In this document: one piece after another, positions 2,073-51,026 of the stretch
Position numbering within the stretch: the first letter of the stretch is position 1
Layout: each line of letters opens with the position of its first letter
Origin: an uncultured delta proteobacterium
GTDB lineage: Bacteria > Desulfobacterota > Desulfobacteria > Desulfobacterales > Desulfosarcinaceae
DNA: 64,000 nt
NCBI GenBank assembly: GCA_963697405.1
Contig: CAVONY010000029.1
Span: forward strand, 42,847 to 106,846
Direction of reading: 5' to 3'
Made by a program: the position numbers and the translations under genes
Notes under the pieces: generated by a model
What the model was told of the DNA's origin: nothing
The model's database searches: none
Seen by the model: the letters and a program-made list of their open reading frames with translations, nothing else

Positions 2073-3752
<1,680 letters not shown>

Positions 3753-3830: not shown

Positions 3831-4126
3831 AACCTCGCTGCCGCGTAAGCCCGCCGTTGTATATAATACATGACAGGAAGCTGATAGCTATGGCCTTGAC
3901 AATCCATCAGAAATCAGGTTACTGAAACCCAAACTGAGCGATTCACCTTTCTCGAAGAAGGTTGATTGTTTTTCCTAAAGATTTCTTCATCGCTGGCCGA
4001 TAAGATAGTTGGAGAAACCCATAAGCATATTCAAAGCGTTCAGATCCATAATGGGTTAAATGCTTAATGGAATAAATAAAAAATGGTCTATCATTGCTTT
4101 CATGCCACCTAAAGATGAGGTTTCTG

Positions 4127-5200
4127 ATGAATCGCAGAATTAATTCAATCGCTCTTATTTCCGTTTTTCTGCTCCTGCCCCTGCTGTTTTTATCGCCTTC
4201 AACAGCAGCAGACAAGATCGACGTGGTCGAAAGCGAGACGGGGTTTTACTACACGATCCAGAAAGGTGACACCCTCTGGGATCTGTCAAACCATTTTAAC
4301 GATTCTCCCTGGCTGTGGCCGGAACTGTGGGAAGGCAACGACCAGATCTCCAATCCTCACTGGATATTCCCCGGTGAACGAATCCGCCTTTACAAAAAGT
4401 CTGGTTCTCAGGCCATAACGCAAAGCGAGGCGATCCAGCCCGTTGCTGTAATCCAACCCGAGCCCGTTACGCCTGCAAAAACCGTCGAGGGAAAAAAAGC
4501 GTCTGCACCGTTTTTCGTATATTCTTCCATTGACCGTGTCGGATTTATCCGAAAGCCGCCCGTAGCGCCCTCGGGAACCATTTTCGAGGTTCAGGGGAGA
4601 AAAGTCCTGATCAGTGAAGGGGACATGGTTTATATCCGTCCGGAAAGAGATACCGCCCAAGGCGTGCTCATTCCCGGGAGCCGGCATACCGTTTTCCGGC
4701 AGATGGAACCGACGGACGAACGCGATTCAACAGAAACCATCGGAACCCAGCACTATATCCTGGGCATCGTGGAAGTGACTAAAAAAGAAACGGATATGGT
4801 AATCGCAAAGGTTCTCAAGTCATTTCGGCCAATCCGTGTGGACGACATGTTGATGCCGTTCAGCCAACGGTCTTCAAAAATCGAACTCAAACCGAGCATC
4901 CCCGGTATCGATGGGCAAATTATCATCTCCGAAGATCATTTGGAATTGACCGGTGACTATACGCTGGCGTTTATCGATAAGGGCCGCGCCGACAACATCC
5001 AAGCCGGTCAGCAATACAGCATTTACAGCAAACAGAAAACCGTCCTGGAAAAGAATGAGATCAGCTCAAAAAGCCTGCCCCCGCTTGACTTTGGCACCTT
5101 TCTCGTCCTGCATACAGAGCAGACCACATCCACGGTGGTCATTACCAGTGCGGCAAAAGTCATCTGGCCTGGAGAACGATTCAGAACGCCAATCAATTAA
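4127..5200 (+). CDS. Secreted LysM-domain (peptidoglycan-binding) protein
   Basis: Signal peptide MNRRINSIALISVFLLLPLLFLSPSTAA, then LysM YYTIQKGDTLWDLSNHF...WIFPGERIRL. GAGG lies 6 nt before the ATG at 4127. The ORF-track start at 4094 is less likely. Confidence 0.8.
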   Translation: MNRRINSIALISVFLLLPLLFLSPSTAADKIDVVESETGFYYTIQKGDTLWDLSNHFNDSPWLWPELWEGNDQISNPHWIFPGERIRLYKKSGSQAITQSEAIQPVAVIQPEPVTPAKTVEGKKASAPFFVYSSIDRVGFIRKPPVAPSGTIFEVQGRKVLISEGDMVYIRPERDTAQGVLIPGSRHTVFRQMEPTDERDSTETIGTQHYILGIVEVTKKETDMVIAKVLKSFRPIRVDDMLMPFSQRSSKIELKPSIPGIDGQIIISEDHLELTGDYTLAFIDKGRADNIQAGQQYSIYSKQKTVLEKNEISSKSLPPLDFGTFLVLHTEQTTSTVVITSAAKVIWPGERFRTPIN

Positions 5201-13818: not shown

Positions 13819-13894
13819 TGGAGCCACCGCGCGGAGTCGAACCGCGGACCTACGCATTACGAGTGCGTTGCTCTACCAACTGAGCTACGGTGGC
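13819..13894 (-). tRNA. tRNA-Thr (anticodon CGU)
   Basis: Minus strand reads GCCACCGTAGCTCAGTTGGTAGAGCAACGCACTCGTAATGCGTAGGTCCGCGGTTCGACTCCGCGCGGTGGCTCCA. It has a cloverleaf, a GTTCGA T-loop, an encoded CCA and the anticodon loop CT-CGT-AA. Confidence 0.93.
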
Positions 13895-19302: not shown

Positions 19303-19360
19303 GATTGGAATCGAACGCATAAGATTTCAGGATCCTTGGATATAGCGGTTCTCCTATAGG

Positions 19361-19454
19361 CTTTAAGATAATTAATTTGGCAAGACTAGAGGGAGGAAGC
19401 CGTACGGTGATACTGCGACGACCGATAACGCAGTCCAAATTAATTATCTTAAGG
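19361..19454. ncRNA. Candidate structured RNA/repeat, copy 1: 54-nt conserved core closed by an 18-20 bp stem
   Basis: 19363-19380 is the perfect reverse complement of 19435-19452. Core 19381-19434 recurs at 27372-27425 (46/54 identical by hand). Strand unresolved. Confidence 0.5.
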
Positions 19455-19461
19455 CCGAAAT

Positions 19462-20184
19462 ATGGAATCGGAAACGAGTCAGGACACATTTGGCGGCTAT
19501 CTGAAAAACTTCCGGTTGAAACAGGGCCTGGCGATTCAAACGGTTGCCGAAAATACAAAAATCGCCGTCCACTGCCTCAAGGCCATTGAGGAGAATGCCC
19601 ATGAGGGGCTCCCCCCACCGGCCTATGTCAAGAGCTTCATTCGGACCTACGCCGATGCAGTAGGGGCCAATGCGGACGTCGCCGTCGAGTTCTACCTGTC
19701 GGATCTGAAACAGCAGGAACACACCAAGCAGCATCACCTGAGACGTCGAGAAAAACTGTCGGCCTTCCGTCGGGCGATGATGGCAGTGGGTCTAATCGTC
19801 GGCATTTTGTTTCTTCTGCGGTACACCGATTTTTTTATGGCTCCGACACCGCCGCAAAACACAGCGGCGCCGGAAGGCACGGTCTTGTCCGAACCGGTTG
19901 CCTCCGGAGCTGAGACAGTCGGGAACCGCCCCTCCGCTGCAGAGACGCAGGACAAGCTCAAACTCCAGATTATCGCCGTGGAGCGAACCTGGTTGAAGGT
20001 GATTGTGGACGGACAGAATGCCCGGTCGTATGATTTGAAACCCGAGGATCGTCTGGAGTTAGAAGGAACCGACAACTTCAATCTGATGATTGGCAACGCC
20101 ACTGGACTGCAAATTTTTCTGGATGAGCGACCGGTTAAGATCTTCGGAAGCAGCGGTCAGGTGGTAAGCCTGAAGATACCATAA
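19462..20184 (+). CDS. RodZ-like cytoskeleton protein (HTH plus DUF4115-like C-terminus)
   Basis: N-terminal HTH FGGYLKNFRLKQGLAIQTVAENTKI...LPPPAYVKSFIRTYA, one TM segment, and a C-terminal domain with KLKLQIIAVERTWLKVIVDG. Confidence 0.75.
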   Translation: MESETSQDTFGGYLKNFRLKQGLAIQTVAENTKIAVHCLKAIEENAHEGLPPPAYVKSFIRTYADAVGANADVAVEFYLSDLKQQEHTKQHHLRRREKLSAFRRAMMAVGLIVGILFLLRYTDFFMAPTPPQNTAAPEGTVLSEPVASGAETVGNRPSAAETQDKLKLQIIAVERTWLKVIVDGQNARSYDLKPEDRLELEGTDNFNLMIGNATGLQIFLDERPVKIFGSSGQVVSLKIP

Positions 20185-24745: not shown

Positions 24746-26821
24746 ATGGATACCCTACTACTTGAAATCGGCGCCGAAGAGATCCCGGCAGGATACATCC
24801 AGCCGGCATTGGACGCCTTGGCCCAAAACCTGCTGAAACGGCTGGACGGGGCCCGCATCGGGCACGGGCAGGCCCGCACCTTTGGCACGCCCAGGCGACT
24901 GACCGTGACCGTCGATCAGGTGGCGCCCAAACAGGAAACCGTTACCGAAAATCTCATGGGCCCGCCGGAAAAAATCGCTTTCGACGATCATGGCAAACCC
25001 AGCGTGGCGGCGGTAAAATTCGCGGAAAAAGCCGGCGTTGCCGTCAAGCGCTTGAAAGTGGTCCAGACAGACAAAGGACGGTACCTGAGCGCCCGCAAAA
25101 CCAACCGCGGGCAGGCCACCGTCAAGCTGCTCAAAACCATCCTGCCCGAGGTAATCCTTGCCACCCCCTTTCCCAAGAGCATGCGCTGGGCAGACCTCTC
25201 GATTCAGTTCGCCCGACCCATCCAGAGCATCGTGGCACTGTATGGCACGCGGCTGGTTTCGTTTACCCTGGGCGGCCGGATCAAAAGTGGCCGCCAGGCA
25301 CTGGGCCACCTGTTCATGAGCCCGGGCAAGGTGACCATCTCCTCCCCGGAGGCCTACGTGCAGACAATGGCCTCGGTGAATGTGGTGGTCAATATCGCCG
25401 AGCGCAGGCAGATGACCGCAGCGGCCGTAATGGCTGCGGCGGCTGACATGGGTGGACGGGTGCTGCCGGATGAAGAACTGCTGGACATCGTCACCAATCT
25501 GGTGGAAACCCCCATCGCCACGGCAGGTCGGTTTGACCACATCTTCCTCGAGGTCCCCAAGGAGATTCTCATCACGGCCATGCGCGAACACCAGAAATAC
25601 TTCGCCGTGATCGACGCGACGAACAGGCTGATGCCCGGATTCATCGCCGTCAACAATACCCGAACCCGGAATATGGACCTGGTGGCCACCGGTCACGAGC
25701 GCGTCCTGCGCGCCCGGCTTTCCGATGCCCGCTATTTCTACACCGCCGACATCAAGGTACCCATGAAAGTCTGGGTGGAGAAACTCAAAGGCGTGCTCTT
25801 TCAAGCCAAGCTGGGCAGCATGTACGACAAGGTGATGCGCGTTAAAAGCATCGCCGGCTGGCTGGCCGATGCCGTCAATCCGGCTGAGAAAGAGAAGGTC
25901 ACCCGCGCGGCTTACCTGTGCAAGGCGGATCTGGTGAGCCAGGTGGTCGGGGAATTTGCCAAACTCCAGGGAATCATGGGGCGGATTTACGCCCAGGCGG
26001 CCGGTGAGGAGCCGGATGTGGCCACTGCCATCGAGGAGCATTACCGGCCCACCCACAGCGGCGGGCAACTGCCGGAGACTGAAACCGGCGCCCTGCTCTC
26101 CATCGCCGAAAAGATCGATTCCATCTGCGGATGCTTCGCCGTCGGCCTGATTCCTACCGGTGCGGCAGATCCCTACGCCCTCCGGCGCCAGGGCATCGGC
26201 ATCCTGCAGATTATGCGCAGCCGGAATATCAACGTGTCGCTTGCCGACCTGGTGGAAAAGGGGATATCCCAGTTCACCGACCAGCGCACCGAACCGACGG
26301 CTCAAATTGCGGACGCCGTCTTGACTTTCCTGAAAAACCGTCTCGCCCGTCTGCTGGCCGACGAGGGACGGTCCAAAGACATCATCGCCGCGGTAACCAG
26401 CGTCTCGTCGGACCGCATCCCCGATGTAGAACGACGGGTGGGTGCCCTGGAAAAACTCAAGGGTCAGCCGGGTTTCGAGCCCCTGGCCGCGGCATTCAAA
26501 CGCGTGGAGAACATCCTAAAAAAAGCCACGGAAACCGGCACCGCACCGGTCGACCCGGCCCTGTTCGCTCACGCCTCGGAAGGTGCTCTGCATGCCGCCT
26601 GCCAGACGGTAACGGCACAGGTGACCCGCCTCATGGGCCAGGGTGACCTGGACAGCGCACTGGACGCCATCGCCACCCTGCGTGATCCGGTGGACACCTT
26701 TTTCGACAAGGTCATGGTCATGGCGGACGAGGAGGTCATTCGCCGCAACCGACTGGCTCTGCTATCATCCATATCGGCCATTTTCGGACAGGTCGCCGAT
26801 TTCTCACAGATATCCACATGA
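24746..26821 (+). CDS. glyS: Glycine--tRNA ligase beta subunit
   Basis: MDTLLLEIGAEEIPAGY is the canonical GlyS N-terminus. GAGGTGAAT RBS before the ATG at 24746. Confidence 0.95.
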   Translation: MDTLLLEIGAEEIPAGYIQPALDALAQNLLKRLDGARIGHGQARTFGTPRRLTVTVDQVAPKQETVTENLMGPPEKIAFDDHGKPSVAAVKFAEKAGVAVKRLKVVQTDKGRYLSARKTNRGQATVKLLKTILPEVILATPFPKSMRWADLSIQFARPIQSIVALYGTRLVSFTLGGRIKSGRQALGHLFMSPGKVTISSPEAYVQTMASVNVVVNIAERRQMTAAAVMAAAADMGGRVLPDEELLDIVTNLVETPIATAGRFDHIFLEVPKEILITAMREHQKYFAVIDATNRLMPGFIAVNNTRTRNMDLVATGHERVLRARLSDARYFYTADIKVPMKVWVEKLKGVLFQAKLGSMYDKVMRVKSIAGWLADAVNPAEKEKVTRAAYLCKADLVSQVVGEFAKLQGIMGRIYAQAAGEEPDVATAIEEHYRPTHSGGQLPETETGALLSIAEKIDSICGCFAVGLIPTGAADPYALRRQGIGILQIMRSRNINVSLADLVEKGISQFTDQRTEPTAQIADAVLTFLKNRLARLLADEGRSKDIIAAVTSVSSDRIPDVERRVGALEKLKGQPGFEPLAAAFKRVENILKKATETGTAPVDPALFAHASEGALHAACQTVTAQVTRLMGQGDLDSALDAIATLRDPVDTFFDKVMVMADEEVIRRNRLALLSSISAIFGQVADFSQIST

Positions 26822-26865
26822 CCCGGACATGCCGGGTCATGTATGGTTTAGATATTGTAACTTGG

Positions 26866-26936
26866 AATTTATTTGAGATTTGGTTTTTGTATTTTGTTAT
26901 TTGTTTATGATTTGTTGTTTGTAATTTGTTATTTCC
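26866..26936. repeat. G/T-rich heptamer-periodic tract (NNNNTTG type)
   Basis: TTATTTG AGATTTG GTTTTTG TATTTTG TTATTTG TTTATGA TTTGTTG TTTGTAA TTTGTTA. Confidence 0.6.
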
Positions 26937-26960
26937 GGTCTATCCGGGTTAGGAGAAAAA

Positions 26961-27215
26961 ATGCCCTTTGATCCAAACAAAGACAAGGTGCTAAAAAAAT
27001 GGAAATGCCCGGAAACCGGGCTGTTGGTTACCATCAACCGCTACGATCAGGGGGAGGCCAAGGTGCAGATCGGCCCCCGTATCCTCAAGAAACAGGACGG
27101 CAGTGACCGAGCCCCGGCCAAGGCCGGCCGCCTGACCACCGAAGACATCCTCTGGCTGTATGACATCATGGATGAAATCAAGGACGAACTGACCGACCTG
27201 CAGCGACCGACCTGA
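26961..27215 (+). CDS. Small conserved-looking protein (84 aa), possibly YdbC/PC4-like
   Basis: AGGAGAAAAA RBS. INRYDQGEAKVQIGPR...AGRLTTEDILWL resembles the YdbC pattern LNRVSWN..PKYDIR...GKGITLSEEE, recalled from memory. Confidence 0.45.
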   Translation: MPFDPNKDKVLKKWKCPETGLLVTINRYDQGEAKVQIGPRILKKQDGSDRAPAKAGRLTTEDILWLYDIMDEIKDELTDLQRPT

Positions 27216-27355
27216 TCCGCTGAACCGCCAACTGCACCGGTCGGTTGGCGTGACTCGCACCGCCGCCGTACGATACATTACATTTCACAACCTCCAGAAC
27301 GAAAGCATATCTGCGGACCATTTCATTCTATATCCGAGGTGGACGTCCATGGTTC

Positions 27356-27441
27356 GAGATCATGCTTATGGCAAGGCCAGAGGGAGGAAGCTGTATAGGC
27401 ATACCGCGACGACCGATAACGCAGTCCACAAACATGATCTC
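27356..27441. ncRNA. Candidate structured RNA/repeat, copy 2: the same 54-nt core closed by a 16-bp stem of unrelated sequence
   Basis: GAGATCATGCTTATGG (27356-27371) against CCACAAACATGATCTC (27426-27441). Core at 27372-27425. Confidence 0.5.
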
Positions 27442-27453
27442 AAATTATAGACT

Positions 27454-28185
27454 ATGCCTGACCGCCGCGCTATCGTTAACCCCGTGAAAGGGAAGAAGCC
27501 GCCCGACACCGGCCCCTTGGCCATTATGGCGGCCACGGAGAGCGATCTGCGTCTGTTGGCGCGCCTGGCGGACACCCCGGTGGTGGCACAGCGCAAGCTT
27601 TACATGAGCAGCCTTCAGGTACATGCGGACGACCAGCGGCGATTCACCGTGGCCGGGCCGATGGTCGGGGCTCCCTATGCTGCCATGATCGTCGAAGCAT
27701 TGGGGGTCTGGGGGGTTGAATCGATCCTCTTTGTCGGCTGGTGTGGCGCCGTATCCCAACAGGTAAAAGCCGGCGACATCATCCTGCCGGACAGCGCCAT
27801 GGTCGACGAAGGCACGTCCGGCCATTACTGCGACCCATCATGCCGGGTGACCCTACCCGCTCGGCCACTGGTGCACCAGGTCCGGTTGGCCCTGCAAAAC
27901 GAGGGGGCCAGGTTCCACGAGGGCGCAGTCTGGACCACCGATGCCATCTTCCGCGAAACGGTTGAGAAGGTAAAACACTACCAGGCCAAAGGTGCCCTGG
28001 CCGTCGAAATGGAGTTGTCCGCCATTTTCACGGTGGCCGGATTTCGCGAAATGCAGGCCGCCGGTATCCTGGTGGTTTCCGATGAACTCTCTGATTATCA
28101 GTGGCGTCCGGGTTTCAACACCCCGGCATTTAAAATCGCCCGTGAGAATGCCTGCCGAGCGGCGTTAACAATTGCAGCCGGATAG
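27454..28185 (+). CDS. Nucleoside phosphorylase, PNP/UDP family 1
   Basis: LAVEMELSAIFTVA motif and a length of 243 aa are typical of DeoD/Udp-type phosphorylases. Substrate not assignable. Confidence 0.7.
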   Translation: MPDRRAIVNPVKGKKPPDTGPLAIMAATESDLRLLARLADTPVVAQRKLYMSSLQVHADDQRRFTVAGPMVGAPYAAMIVEALGVWGVESILFVGWCGAVSQQVKAGDIILPDSAMVDEGTSGHYCDPSCRVTLPARPLVHQVRLALQNEGARFHEGAVWTTDAIFRETVEKVKHYQAKGALAVEMELSAIFTVAGFREMQAAGILVVSDELSDYQWRPGFNTPAFKIARENACRAALTIAAG

Positions 28186-50807: not shown

Positions 50808-50865
50808 AATATGATCTGGAAAAACCGGAAATAACGAATGGAGAGCACCAACTGTTTAGTAAACT

Positions 50866-51026
50866 AACAAATTACAAGTACCAAATGACAAACCAATTCC
50901 AAATTACAATATCAAAAAGACAAATCATTGATAGTTGGAATGTTCACGCTTCAAGATCATGAGGTTTGGAATTTTGAATCTGACTGTTGTGATTTATTTG
51001 TCATCTTTTTTGATTATTGTGATTTA

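What the first reader, a model, noticed from the sequence alone, without database searches (positions are those of the whole stretch)
27356..27441. Conserved 54-nt core, copy 2, with an unrelated 16-bp clamp stem, ending 12 nt before the nucleoside phosphorylase start codon
GAGATCATGCTTATGG (27356-27371) pairs with CCACAAACATGATCTC (27426-27441). The two imperfect positions become G-U pairs only if the minus strand is transcribed. The interior (27372-27425) is the second copy of the core seen at 19381-19434. The inner hairpin ACYGCG-ACGACCGATAA-CGCAGT is kept in both copies; the C/T difference is G-U compatible on the minus strand. The downstream gene has no recognisable SD in the 12 nt (AAATTATAGACT) between the stem and its ATG. 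If the gene start is right, translation initiation must involve the element or be leaderless or atypical.
Basis: seen in the sequence. Interest (0 to 1): 0.65.

Follow-up and report, generated by a model that had tools for sequence, protein, structure and literature searches.

The report
Correia-like hairpin repeat (MITE) copy
The hairpin in front of the nucleoside phosphorylase gene is one old copy of a roughly 105-base palindromic mobile repeat that occurs in dozens of copies per genome in Desulfosarcina-type sulfate reducers; it is not a switch built for this gene, although its central core is kept unusually constant.

Summary
Window 27346-27449 (copy 2) and 19355-19460 (copy 1) are two members of a family of about 105-nt repeats. 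At least 183 copies were recovered from at least 32 Desulfosarcinaceae and related assemblies, dispersed and in tandem arrays.

- **Anatomy.** Each copy is a rod-like hairpin. It has a 25-29-bp terminal stem (TATAGGCTTTAAGATAAT...), a conserved purine-rich internal region, and a 7-bp apical hairpin.
- **The "unrelated clamps".** These are diverged versions of the same terminal inverted repeat. 24 of its 25 pairs show compensatory changes.
- **Mobility.** A clean empty/filled pair at the surA-rodZ locus shows insertion at a TA with TA (or TATA) duplication. Orientation is random relative to flanking genes. There is no Rfam match.
- **Closest analogue.** The Neisseria Correia element, a MITE.
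Family-wide G·U counts favour the + strand. The proposed inner hairpin has no comparative support. ATG 27454 is the true start, and orthologues without the element also lack a Shine-Dalgarno sequence.
- **Notable.** Across 11-12 orthologous copies upstream of the phosphorylase gene, the 54-nt core is 91-96% identical while four-fold sites (63%) and flank (56%) are near saturation. The core is therefore under constraint in situ.

The mobilising enzyme and the function of the core are unknown.

The parts
27346..27449 (+). Copy 2 of the repeat, whole element including degenerate terminal dinucleotides (TC...TA in place of TA...TA)
   Evidence: nhmmer profile hit 27351-27451, E=9e-26. Ends were placed by alignment to the family consensus. 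Orthologous copies occur in L113, L118-L120, L122, L124-L126, L130, L132, L133 and L135.
27348..27372 (+). 5' arm of the terminal stem P1.
27424..27447 (+). 3' arm of P1. G27424 pairs with C27372, and T27425 is bulged.
27379..27388 (+). 5' strand AGAGGGAGGA of the proposed non-canonical helix: A-U, then three tandem G·A/A·G pairs separated by G-C pairs
   Evidence: Inferred from sequence. The register is supported by long natural variants that place a Watson-Crick helix (AAATCC/GGATTT) exactly after G14, and by mismatch-to-Watson-Crick changes in L150/L151. It has not been tested by probing.
27408..27417 (+). 3' strand GACGACCGAT of the proposed G·A-rich helix
   Evidence: This is the most deeply shared block of the family in metagenomes (depth profile).
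27390..27407 (+). Apical hairpin P2: GCTGTAT, loop AGGC, ATACCGC. The third pair is T·C.
   Evidence: Pair 50:68 of alignment A3 is CG in 40 copies, GC in 8, GU in 4, UG in 1 and AU in 1. The loop varies from 4 to 8 nt.
19355..19460 (+). Copy 1 of the repeat (ATTAATTT subfamily). TA 19355-19356, body TAGGC...GCCGA 19357-19458, right dinucleotide AA 19459-19460 (TA in relatives). It ends 1 nt before the rodZ ATG at 19462.
   Evidence: nhmmer hit 19354-19459, E=1.7e-29. Empty alleles in L148, L149 and L152 and filled alleles in L146, L150 and L151. An empty-allele contig was seen in run X4.
27454..28185 (+). PNP_UDP_1-family nucleoside phosphorylase gene; the start codon at 27454 is confirmed
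   Evidence: Pfam PF01048, E=3.5e-36. In 28 orthologues, conservation begins exactly at the ATG.
26961..27215 (+). Upstream 84-aa ORF with no Pfam family. In some relatives its stop lies only 5 nt before the phosphorylase ATG.

Best explanation
The finding is copy 2 of a family of about 105-nt non-coding, palindromic, dispersed repeats found in Desulfosarcinaceae and relatives. [quoted passage not shown]

**Shown.**
- The unit has sharp ends (TATAG...CTATA) and about 26-bp terminal inverted repeats.
- It occurs dozens of times per genome at unrelated intergenic sites, in either orientation, and also in about 99-bp tandem arrays.
- It has genome-specific subfamilies of near-identical copies.
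- It is present or absent at orthologous sites.
- One clean empty/filled pair shows insertion at the TA of TCTATATGG, with TA (or TATA) on both sides.

**Inferred.**
- It is mobilised in trans by an enzyme not encoded in it.
- The active or selected form is the folded + strand (the GAGGGAGG strand). That strand forms a continuous rod: P1, a small internal loop, a 10-bp helix held by three tandem G·A pairs, a bulged A, then P2.

**Copy 2 specifically.** It is an old insertion 4 nt upstream of the phosphorylase ATG and is inherited by many lineages. Its arms drift but remain paired. Its 54-nt core is held almost constant, so the core is bound or used by something, either a host protein or the mobilising enzyme. 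If the region is co-transcribed from upstream, the element would place a long double-stranded RNA rod in the mRNA. By analogy with Correia elements this is a likely RNase III or stability determinant.

The element is not the gene's ribosome-binding device. The gene lacks a Shine-Dalgarno sequence whether or not the element is present.
For: **Abundance and distribution.**
Almost all are Desulfosarcina, SEEP-SRB2 or Desulfobacteraceae.
- 131 pattern instances and 183 profile hits were found. None occur in viral contigs.
- In salt-marsh metagenomes, element depth is 40-80 times flank depth.

**Boundaries and stems.**
- The left boundary is sharp at TATAG.
- P1 and P2 are 94.1% paired. 26 of 30 pairs change on both sides, 0 of 500 shuffles reach this, and slid controls give about 40% pairing.
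- G·U on the + strand outnumbers G·U on the - strand by 138 to 46 and by 68 to 19.

**Genomic setting.**
- Orientation relative to neighbours is 23, 27, 27 and 7 for ++, --, convergent and divergent.
- Arrays lie between ordinary genes with no transposase nearby.

**Insertion polymorphism.**
- Empty versus filled alleles at surA-rodZ: L152 reads GTTCTTCTATATGGAATCGG, while the filled forms read ...CCTATAGGC...GGCCGATATATGG.
- An empty allele appears in run X4.
- The orthologous phosphorylase locus has filled, half-deleted (L134), decayed (L137, L141) and element-free forms.

**Constraint in situ.**
- Mean pairwise identity is 0.96 and 0.91 for the two core blocks, 0.73 and 0.69 for the arms, 0.56 for the left flank, and 0.63 for phosphorylase four-fold sites.
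- Variable columns number 16 of 54 in the core and 35 of 46 in the arms (Fisher p=3.7e-6).

**Other.**
- No Rfam family matches.
- Correia elements share these properties: 104-108 bp, termini TATAG[CT]GG..., a TA target, a characteristic core, and no known transposase (PMC2649163; PMC5039591).
Against: - No autonomous element or transposase with matching ends was found. Only about 1 Mb of flanking DNA could be inspected.
- The TA duplication rests on one locus whose target (TATAT) is itself palindromic. A TATA duplication or an insertion without duplication cannot be excluded. No duplication is seen outside the hairpin.
- In a few copies the terminal TATA has changed in a complementary rather than direct way, for example L052 with CCCAG...CTGGG. 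That fits a stem better than a target duplication.
- Classical MITEs conserve their terminal repeats and let the interior drift. Here the reverse is true.
- Strong conservation of an old copy's core is not expected for purely selfish DNA.
- The strand-specific G·U bias is more typical of single-strand (HUH-type) mobilisation or RNA function than of double-strand cut-and-paste.
- Presence at the rodZ locus is patchy with respect to relatedness: filled at four-fold identity 0.94 and 0.71, empty at 0.87 and 0.77. This needs precise loss, recombination or repeated insertion to explain.
- No strand-resolved RNA data were available.
Confidence: 0.72

Rival explanations
1. The element is mobilised as single-stranded DNA by an HUH (Y1) enzyme, in the manner of REP/REPIN-RAYT or IS200/IS605-derived palindromic elements. 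The folded + strand is the substrate, and the conserved G·A-rich internal region is the recognition site. The apparent TA duplication is then a target preference rather than a duplication.
For: - There is a strand-specific G·U (G·T) bias, 138 to 46 and 68 to 19.
- Pairing extends to the very last bases, with complementary changes at the termini.
- No duplication is seen outside the hairpin.
- The core is conserved more than the stems, and loop length is free.
- Tandem G·A pairs are also stable in DNA (established knowledge).
Against: - The empty/filled pair is most simply read as a TA duplication with symmetric ends TAGGC...GCCTA.
- There is no conserved flanking tetranucleotide.
- The orientation test against local GC skew is weak: 41 versus 62, p=0.048.
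- No Y1 transposase gene was seen in the flanks.
- REP units are 20-40 nt with a GTAG-type head, which is absent here.
Confidence: 0.15
2. The unit is primarily a functional structured RNA module that has been spread by transposition and is now kept by the host. It would act as a protein-binding or RNase-processing rod placed in many untranslated regions.
For: - The core is held at 91-96% identity at an orthologous site where neutral sites are saturated.
- The arms evolve by compensatory change.
- Variation in loop length is tolerated, which argues for a folded single strand rather than a duplex site.
- Metatranscriptome contigs cover the element.
- Copies sit close to gene starts and ends and avoid divergent promoter regions.
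Against: - Half of the co-directional copies are antisense to both neighbours (27 versus 23), yet the G·U bias says only the + strand folds well.
- No promoter-like or terminator-like sites are found in either window copy.
- RNA depth over the element in isolate-like runs is no more than the summed low depth of many copies.
- The copy 1 orthologue in L150/L151 has 5 core changes.
Confidence: 0.3
3. One reading: a cis-regulatory RNA, or an antisense RNA transcribed from the minus strand, that controls translation initiation of the adjacent nucleoside phosphorylase gene.
For: - Copy 2 folds better on the minus strand (-36.0 vs -28.6 kcal/mol).
- The element ends 4 nt from an ATG that has no Shine-Dalgarno sequence.
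- The copy is retained at this locus in many lineages.
Against: - The family is dispersed next to unrelated genes in both orientations.
- Family G·U statistics favour the + strand.
- Orthologues without the element keep the same start and also lack a Shine-Dalgarno sequence.
- The proposed inner hairpin has no covariation.
- The alternative start is not conserved.
Confidence: 0.05
4. The core is a double-stranded DNA binding site for a nucleoid or regulatory protein, as with the IHF site in long Correia elements or gyrase and IHF at REP/BIME. The inverted repeats would then only be transposon ends.
For: The core sequence is conserved in both orientations relative to genes. Other bacterial repeats provide a precedent (PMC10969869).
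Against: - The two conserved blocks are separated by a hairpin whose loop varies from 4 to 8 nt, and in one subfamily by an added helix of about 20 nt. This would change spacing and helical phase in duplex DNA.
- The G·U strand bias and the compensatory changes indicate selection on a folded single strand.
Confidence: 0.1

Closest known systems
Correia repeat-enclosed elements (CREE / NEMIS) of Neisseria
   Same: - Size class: 104-108 bp for the short CREE form (PMC2649163) and about 105 nt here.
- About 26-bp terminal inverted repeats beginning TATAG.
- A TA target with duplication.
- A "characteristic core" between the repeats.
- A hundred or more intergenic copies per genome, often just upstream of genes.
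- Strain-to-strain presence and absence, truncated fragments and tandem-duplication variants.
- No encoded protein and no known transposase.
- When transcribed, both form long hairpins. In Neisseria these are RNase III substrates.
   Different: - There is no sequence similarity beyond the TATAG termini. The arms here read GGCTTTAAGATAAT, against TGGATTAACAAAAA in Correia elements.
- The phylum is different (Desulfobacterota).
- The core here is a purine-rich block (AGAGGGAGGAAG) facing GACGACCGATAACGC, with a proposed triple tandem G·A helix.
- The arms vary by subfamily with compensation while the core is nearly invariant.
- There is a strand-specific G·U bias.
- About 99-bp head-to-tail arrays with a truncated 3' arm are common.
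- Promoter, IHF and RNase III properties are untested here, and no sigma-70-like promoter match was found in either window copy.
REP / REPIN elements with RAYT transposases
   Same: - Abundant extragenic palindromes that persist vertically for long periods.
- They fold as single strands.
- They are enriched at gene ends.
- They occur in clusters.
   Different: - REP units are 20-40 nt with a conserved GTAG-type head, and REPINs are inverted doublets of such units.
- The unit here is a single about 105-nt hairpin with a conserved asymmetric core.
- The arrays here are direct repeats, not alternating ones.
- There is an apparent TA duplication.
- No RAYT gene was seen, though whole genomes could not be searched.
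ERIC / IRU and other enterobacterial or Gram-positive MITE-like repeats (RUP, BOX, bcr1, RPE)
   Same: These are non-coding intergenic imperfect palindromes of about 100-130 bp that are co-transcribed with neighbouring genes and affect mRNA stability (PMC10969869).
   Different: There is no sequence relationship. Those families do not show the conserved core, variable compensated arms and G·A-rich helix described here.

Membership tests
MITE (miniature inverted-repeat transposable element) | Short (under about 300 bp) with no coding capacity | tested here: met
   The unit is 104-107 nt, or 125-130 nt in a long variant. It has no ORF.
MITE (miniature inverted-repeat transposable element) | Terminal inverted repeats that reach the ends of the unit | tested here: met
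   The stem has 25-29 paired positions from TATAG to CTATA, with 93% of cells paired.
MITE (miniature inverted-repeat transposable element) | Many dispersed copies at non-homologous sites | tested here: met
   183 profile hits in 118+ loci from at least 32 assemblies. The family is multi-copy in metagenomes.
MITE (miniature inverted-repeat transposable element) | Presence/absence polymorphism at orthologous sites | tested here: met
   At surA-rodZ: filled in the window, L146 and L150/151; empty in L148/149 and L152. The phosphorylase locus also has forms with and without the element.
MITE (miniature inverted-repeat transposable element) | Target-site duplication | tested here: inconclusive
   One clean pair fits a TA (or TATA) duplication, but the target TATAT is palindromic. 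No duplication is seen outside the hairpin. Some termini changed in a complementary way.
MITE (miniature inverted-repeat transposable element) | A cognate autonomous IS with the same ends, or another trans-acting transposase | not tested
   Only the fetched flanks (about 1 Mb) could be scanned, and no such element was seen.
Correia element (CREE/NEMIS) sequence family | Correia 26-bp repeat TATAG[CT]GGATTAA(CAAAAA/ATTTAAA)... | tested here: not met
   Only TATAG is shared. The arms here are GGCTTTAAGATAAT... (versus the sequences quoted). The element works like a Correia element but is not a member of that family.
Correia element (CREE/NEMIS) sequence family | RNase III cleavage of the transcribed hairpin, outward promoters, an IHF site | not testable with these tools
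   There is no sigma-70-like match in either window copy. No strand-resolved or end-resolved RNA data were available.
Any Rfam 15 RNA family (riboswitch, ribozyme, sRNA, leader) | Covariance-model match at or near the gathering score | tested here: not met
   The only hit at gathering threshold in the window is a tRNA. At E up to 10, only spurious microRNA-precursor matches to the long stem appear.
Gene-specific cis-regulatory RNA (riboswitch or leader) | Consistent association with one gene family, and sense orientation upstream of it | tested here: not met
   Neighbours are unrelated housekeeping genes. Co-directional copies are 23 sense and 27 antisense.
REP/REPIN-RAYT | A 20-40-nt palindrome with a conserved 5' tetranucleotide, inverted doublets, and a flanked RAYT gene | tested here: not met
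   The unit is one 105-nt hairpin. Arrays are direct repeats with a period of about 99 bp. The RAYT gene itself was not searched for.
IS200/IS605-derived palindromic elements | No terminal inverted repeats, subterminal hairpins, and insertion 3' of a fixed tetra- or pentanucleotide without duplication | tested here: inconclusive
   Against membership: the inverted repeat reaches both ends, and no fixed flanking motif exists (position -35 is C 36%, A 33%). Consistent with membership: the strand-specific G·T bias.
Integron attC site | R''/R' boxes (RYYYAAC...GTTRRRY) and location in cassette arrays | tested here: not met
   The termini are TATAG/CTATA, and the copies lie between housekeeping genes.

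The most novel reading that the evidence does not exclude
The repeat is a domesticated mobile hairpin. Its invariant core would fold into a rod stiffened by three tandem G·A pairs (5'-AGAGGGAGGA / 5'-GACGACCGAU) and serve as a specific docking site for a conserved host factor on RNA or single-stranded DNA. Transposition would then have wired up to hundreds of intergenic sites per genome into one post-transcriptional or replication-linked network in Desulfosarcina-type sulfate reducers. That would make it a new structured nucleic-acid motif class not yet in Rfam.
Probability: 0.25. Interest if true: 0.7.

Novelty: new member of a known kind. Interest (0 to 1): 0.4.

Why it matters
**For annotation.** The finding removes a tempting false lead. 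The hairpin before the phosphorylase gene is not a riboswitch or a special initiation device, and the same repeat explains the hairpin before rodZ.

**For biology.** It documents an apparently undescribed, very abundant Correia-like repeat family in an environmentally dominant clade of marine sulfate reducers. No match was found in Rfam, and two literature searches plus term look-ups in two Desulfobacteraceae genome papers found no mention of it. In salt-marsh metagenomes its core is 40-80 times deeper than single-copy flanks.

The family has two unusual properties: a core kept nearly invariant at an orthologous site where synonymous sites are saturated, and a strand-specific pairing bias. Together these make it a good system for asking how a mobile hairpin becomes a host-maintained module, and which enzyme moves such elements. 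That enzyme is still unknown even for the Neisseria Correia elements.

**Practical note.** These repeats break assemblies and can be mistaken for small-RNA genes.

Tried and rejected
- **Rfam.** I searched at gathering threshold and at E up to 10. Nothing was found except spurious microRNA matches to the long stem.
- **Known ribozymes.** I compared the core by eye with hammerhead, twister, pistol and hairpin ribozymes (recalled consensus sequences). No match was seen, and Rfam agrees.
- **Sigma-70 promoter and intrinsic terminator scans.** Both window copies gave none.
- **Strand-resolved RNA evidence.** Only direction-less Logan contigs were available. They show that the element is present in metatranscriptomes and isolate-like runs but give no strand or ends.
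- **Empty sites by joined-flank BLAST among the fetched loci.** The search was swamped by extra copies and arrays and gave only one distant pair. Retrieval through the flanking proteins solved the problem.
- **Nucleotide-level junction from a metagenome contig lacking copy 1.** The contig is only 87% identical, which is too diverged.
- **Replication-orientation test by local GC skew.** The result was weak: 41 versus 62, p=0.048.
- **A transposase beside arrays, or orphan arms flanking a larger element.** Neighbours are ordinary genes. The one interrupted copy (L059) holds an unrelated IS-like insertion.
- **Excess of start codons abutting the right end.** The apparent asymmetry came largely from counting orthologous phosphorylase loci several times.
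- **Viral contigs.** No copies were found.
- **Literature.** Two searches and term look-ups in two Desulfobacteraceae genome papers found no description of the family.
- **Rejected readings.** Integron attC site, retron ncRNA, SRP-like motif and small ORF were all rejected on sequence grounds.
Full report
**1. The observation**

GAGATCATGCTTATGG (27356-27371) pairs with CCACAAACATGATCTC (27426-27441), giving 14 Watson-Crick pairs and two C·A mismatches on the + strand. The 54 nt between them match 19381-19434 at 46 of 54 positions. The two conserved blocks occur only at these two places in the 64-kb window, against 0.2 and 0.0 matches expected by chance. ATG 27454 follows 12 nt later with no Shine-Dalgarno sequence. 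Copy 1 shows the reverse. No Rfam family matches either copy.

**2. It is one member of a large repeat family**

- Apart from one chance hit in an Akkermansia MAG, the hits come from 32 assemblies of Desulfosarcina (D. cetonica, D. variabilis, D. widdelii and MAGs), SEEP-SRB2, Desulfococcus-like and other Desulfobacteraceae genomes.
- Several genomes contribute dozens of loci each.
- Some loci hold head-to-tail arrays with a period of about 99 bp.

No copy occurs in IMG/VR viral contigs. In salt-marsh metagenomes, depth over the element is 40-80 times that of the single-copy flanks.

*Caveat.* The two blocks used as the search pattern are invariant in the genome-scan set by construction. Conclusions about core conservation below therefore rest on copies found independently through neighbouring proteins.

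**3. Anatomy**

Conservation starts abruptly 34 nt before GAGGG, at TATAG, and ends at CTATA. The consensus is:

TATAGGCTTTAAGATAATGTTTTTGG-CAAGGCYAGAGGGAGGAAG-CTGTAT-(loop 4-8)-ATACCG-CGACGACCGATAACGCAGT-CCAAAAACATTATCTTAAAGCCTATA

The "clamp" stems of the two window copies are therefore not unrelated. Copy 1 belongs to the ATTAATTT subfamily. Copy 2 is a decayed member of a GATCATG-type subfamily (compare L101), and its full extent is 27346-27449.

On an alignment of 54 diverse copies (A3):
- the terminal stem P1 (25 pairs) and the apical hairpin P2 are 94.1% paired;
- 26 of 30 pairs change on both sides;
- none of 500 shuffles reaches any of the five measures;
- slid registers give about 40% pairing.

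It is paired in only 72% of cells, which 380 of 500 shuffles equal, and it shows no covariation.

The two conserved single-stranded-looking blocks can be laid against each other as a continuous helix, 5'-AGAGGGAGGA-3' with 5'-GACGACCGAU-3'. This gives one A-U pair, three tandem G·A/A·G pairs and three G-C pairs. The helix is an inference, but its register has three supports:
- a long subfamily (125-130 nt) places a Watson-Crick helix AAATCC/GGATTT exactly after G14 and before CGACCGAT;
- in the L150/L151 orthologue of copy 1, two mismatches have become C-G and G-C in that register;
- in another subfamily, the bulged A17 becomes a G paired with a shifted C.

The whole unit is thus a rod-like hairpin.

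**4. Which strand**

The family shows the opposite.
- In P1 of 126 distinct copies there are 138 G·U cells on the + strand against 46 on the - strand.
- In the 54 diverse copies the counts are 68 against 19.
- The + strand G·U states are shared by whole subfamilies, whereas the A·C states are mostly singletons.

The folded form that is propagated or selected is therefore the GAGGGAGG strand. Full-length folds agree:

| Copy | + strand (kcal/mol) | - strand (kcal/mol) |
|---|---|---|
| Copy 1 | -38.6 | -34.7 |
| Copy 2 (drifting) | -28.6 | -36.0 |

(DNA parameters)

**5. Mobility**

*Genomic setting.* Copies lie almost always between genes and show no preference for the sense of their neighbours. 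Counts are 23 sense, 27 antisense, 27 between convergent genes and 7 between divergent genes. Gene calls here were crude. Arrays are flanked by ordinary genes, not transposases.

*The rodZ locus.* RodZ homologues and their contigs gave a clean comparison:
- empty alleles read GTTCTTCTATATGGAATCGG (L152) or GTTCTTCTCTATGGAATCGG (L148/149);
- filled alleles read GTTCTCCTATAGGCTTT...AAGGCCGATATATGGAATCGG (L150/151), with GAAATATGG in the window.

The simplest reading is insertion of TAGGC...GCC(T>G)A at a TA, with TA on both sides. Because the target is TATAT, a TATA duplication or an insertion without duplication cannot be excluded. No duplication exists outside the hairpin. In a few copies the terminal bases have changed in a complementary rather than direct way, for example CCCAG...CTGGG in L052.

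*Patchy presence.* Occupancy of this site does not follow relatedness. It is filled at four-fold identity 0.94 and 0.71, and empty at 0.87 and 0.77. A metagenome contig lacking the 107 nt was also seen.

**6. The phosphorylase locus**

Twenty-eight related loci were retrieved through the protein alone.

*Start codon.* In all 28, similarity begins exactly at ATGCCTGACCGC, and residues 1-24 are conserved as protein. Met25 (27526) is Leu, Val or Ile in several orthologues. The annotated start is therefore right and the alternative is refuted.

*Shine-Dalgarno sequence.* Loci without the element (L121, L123, L143, L129/L142, L131, L136, L138, L139) also lack one. In L136 only 5 nt separate the upstream stop from the ATG. 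The atypical initiation belongs to the gene, not to the element.

*Occupied loci.* Twelve sequences (the window, L113 and ten metagenome loci, L124 being identical to L113 over this stretch) carry the element at the same distance from the ATG, with homologous left flanks. They descend from one old insertion. Other loci hold a half copy (L134) or decayed remnants (L137, L141).

*Conservation among the occupied loci* (the window and ten loci):

| Region | Mean pairwise identity |
|---|---|
| Phosphorylase four-fold degenerate sites | 0.63 (down to 0.47) |
| Left flank | 0.56 |
| Arms | 0.73 and 0.69 |
| Core blocks | 0.96 and 0.91 |

Variable columns number 16 of 54 in the core against 35 of 46 in the arms (p=3.7e-6) and 83 of 92 in the flank (p=4e-14). 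The arms stay complementary through changes such as GATCATG/CATGATC to GAGCATG/CATGCTC.

An old individual copy is thus under purifying selection on its core and on the pairing of its stem. Purely selfish DNA is not expected to behave this way. Gene conversion is an unlikely substitute, because it would scramble the locus-specific complementary arms.

At the rodZ locus the picture is less extreme. The arms are 98% identical and the core 91%, against about 75% at four-fold sites.

**7. Expression**

Only direction-less contigs were available. Metatranscriptome contigs cover copy 2 at low depth. Isolate-like runs show element depth consistent with many weakly expressed copies rather than one abundant small RNA. 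No sigma-70-like promoter or intrinsic terminator is predicted in either copy.

**8. Interpretation**

The best-supported account is a Correia-like MITE family. The units are short, non-coding and bounded by about 26-bp inverted repeats beginning TATAG. They insert at TA, are abundant and polymorphic, form subfamilies that imply bursts of amplification, and are mobilised in trans by an unknown enzyme.

Correia elements of Neisseria share the following (PMC2649163; PMC5039591; review PMC10969869):
- the size class (104-108 bp);
- the TATAG termini;
- the TA target;
- a "characteristic core";
- the lack of a known transposase.

They act on neighbouring genes through RNase III cleavage of the transcribed hairpin, outward promoters and an IHF site. 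The element here works like a Correia element but is not a member of that sequence family.

Three features do not fit a plain cut-and-paste MITE:
- the core rather than the ends is invariant;
- the pairing bias is strand-specific;
- an old copy is under constraint.

These keep two rivals alive. One is single-strand (HUH-type) mobilisation. The other is exaptation as a protein-binding or processing module on RNA or single-stranded DNA.

*For copy 2 specifically.* If the region is co-transcribed from upstream, the mRNA carries a long double-stranded rod of roughly 40-45 bp ending 4 nt before the AUG. Its most likely effect is on processing or stability of the transcript, by analogy only. It is not the ribosome-binding determinant.

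*Tandem arrays.* A head-to-tail dimer creates a long perfect palindrome from the 3' arm of one unit and the 5' arm of the next. The arrays, which always show a truncated 3' arm between units, are most simply explained by partial deletion of that palindrome followed by unit amplification. This is inference.

**9. Verdict**

The gene-specific interpretation is not supported. The feature is a new member of a known kind, a bacterial MITE. It carries an unusually constrained core, which is the part worth following up.

Noticed in passing
window 26822-26960 (also 50818-50925, - strand): A 139-nt T/G-rich stretch (…GTTATTTGTTTATGATTTGTTGTTTGTAATTTGTTATTTCC…) lies between the glyS stop and the 84-aa ORF. 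Relatives lack it: contigs join 26821 to 26961 with only TTTTACAGGAGGAACTG in between. Positions 26900-26950 have very high depth in DNA contigs (2413 in X3) and RNA contigs (3204 in X25), with divergent flanks. This points to another widespread repeat or a highly expressed leader motif. A 75%-identical copy lies at 50818-50925.
   Followed up: partly
L113 about 2954-3092 (- strand) and L124; insertion point corresponds to window 27279/27280: Close relatives carry an unrelated 135-nt insertion rich in GC hairpins (CCCCGCGGCAAGCCGCGGGG, CCCCGCCGCAAGCGGCGAG) about 70 nt upstream of copy 2. It is probably a second MITE-like family.
   Followed up: no
window 27454 and orthologues L118-L145: The PNP_UDP_1 gene has no Shine-Dalgarno sequence in any of 28 orthologues, and conservation starts exactly at the ATG. 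In L136 the upstream stop is 5 nt away. Several element-free loci have a TGAAAT or GATAAA -10-like hexamer 4-8 nt before the ATG. A leaderless mRNA or translational coupling is possible but untested.
   Followed up: partly
L027 5795-5921, L109 623-746, L016 4524-4649, L034 7768-7895: A longer (125-130 nt) subfamily of the same element replaces GAAG-P2-GA with an extra helix (AAATCC...GGATTT) carrying its own hairpin.
   Followed up: partly
L059 5240-5906 (- strand): One family copy in a SEEP-SRB2 genome is split by another IS-like insertion. That insertion has terminal repeats CTGAAGTTCC.../...GGAACTTCAG and a duplicated TTTAAT, and it contains a scaffold gap. It sits next to a 359-aa transposase-like ORF at 4087-5166.
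   Followed up: partly
L001 1314-1616, L052 2739-3036, L063 3318-3620, L021, L100, L110, L035, L028: Head-to-tail arrays of 2-3 or more units have a period of about 99 bp. Every internal junction keeps a full 5' arm but only 12-16 nt of the preceding 3' arm, plus a short linker. Linkers are similar within a subfamily.
   Followed up: partly
window 19462 (rodZ) and 19355-19460: Copy 1 ends 1 nt before the rodZ start codon. Its A-to-G change in the 3' arm creates AAGG 10-13 nt upstream of the ATG. The empty alleles have no clear Shine-Dalgarno sequence there either.
   Followed up: no
window 13822-13894 (- strand): A tRNA gene, the only Rfam hit in the window at gathering threshold.
   Followed up: no
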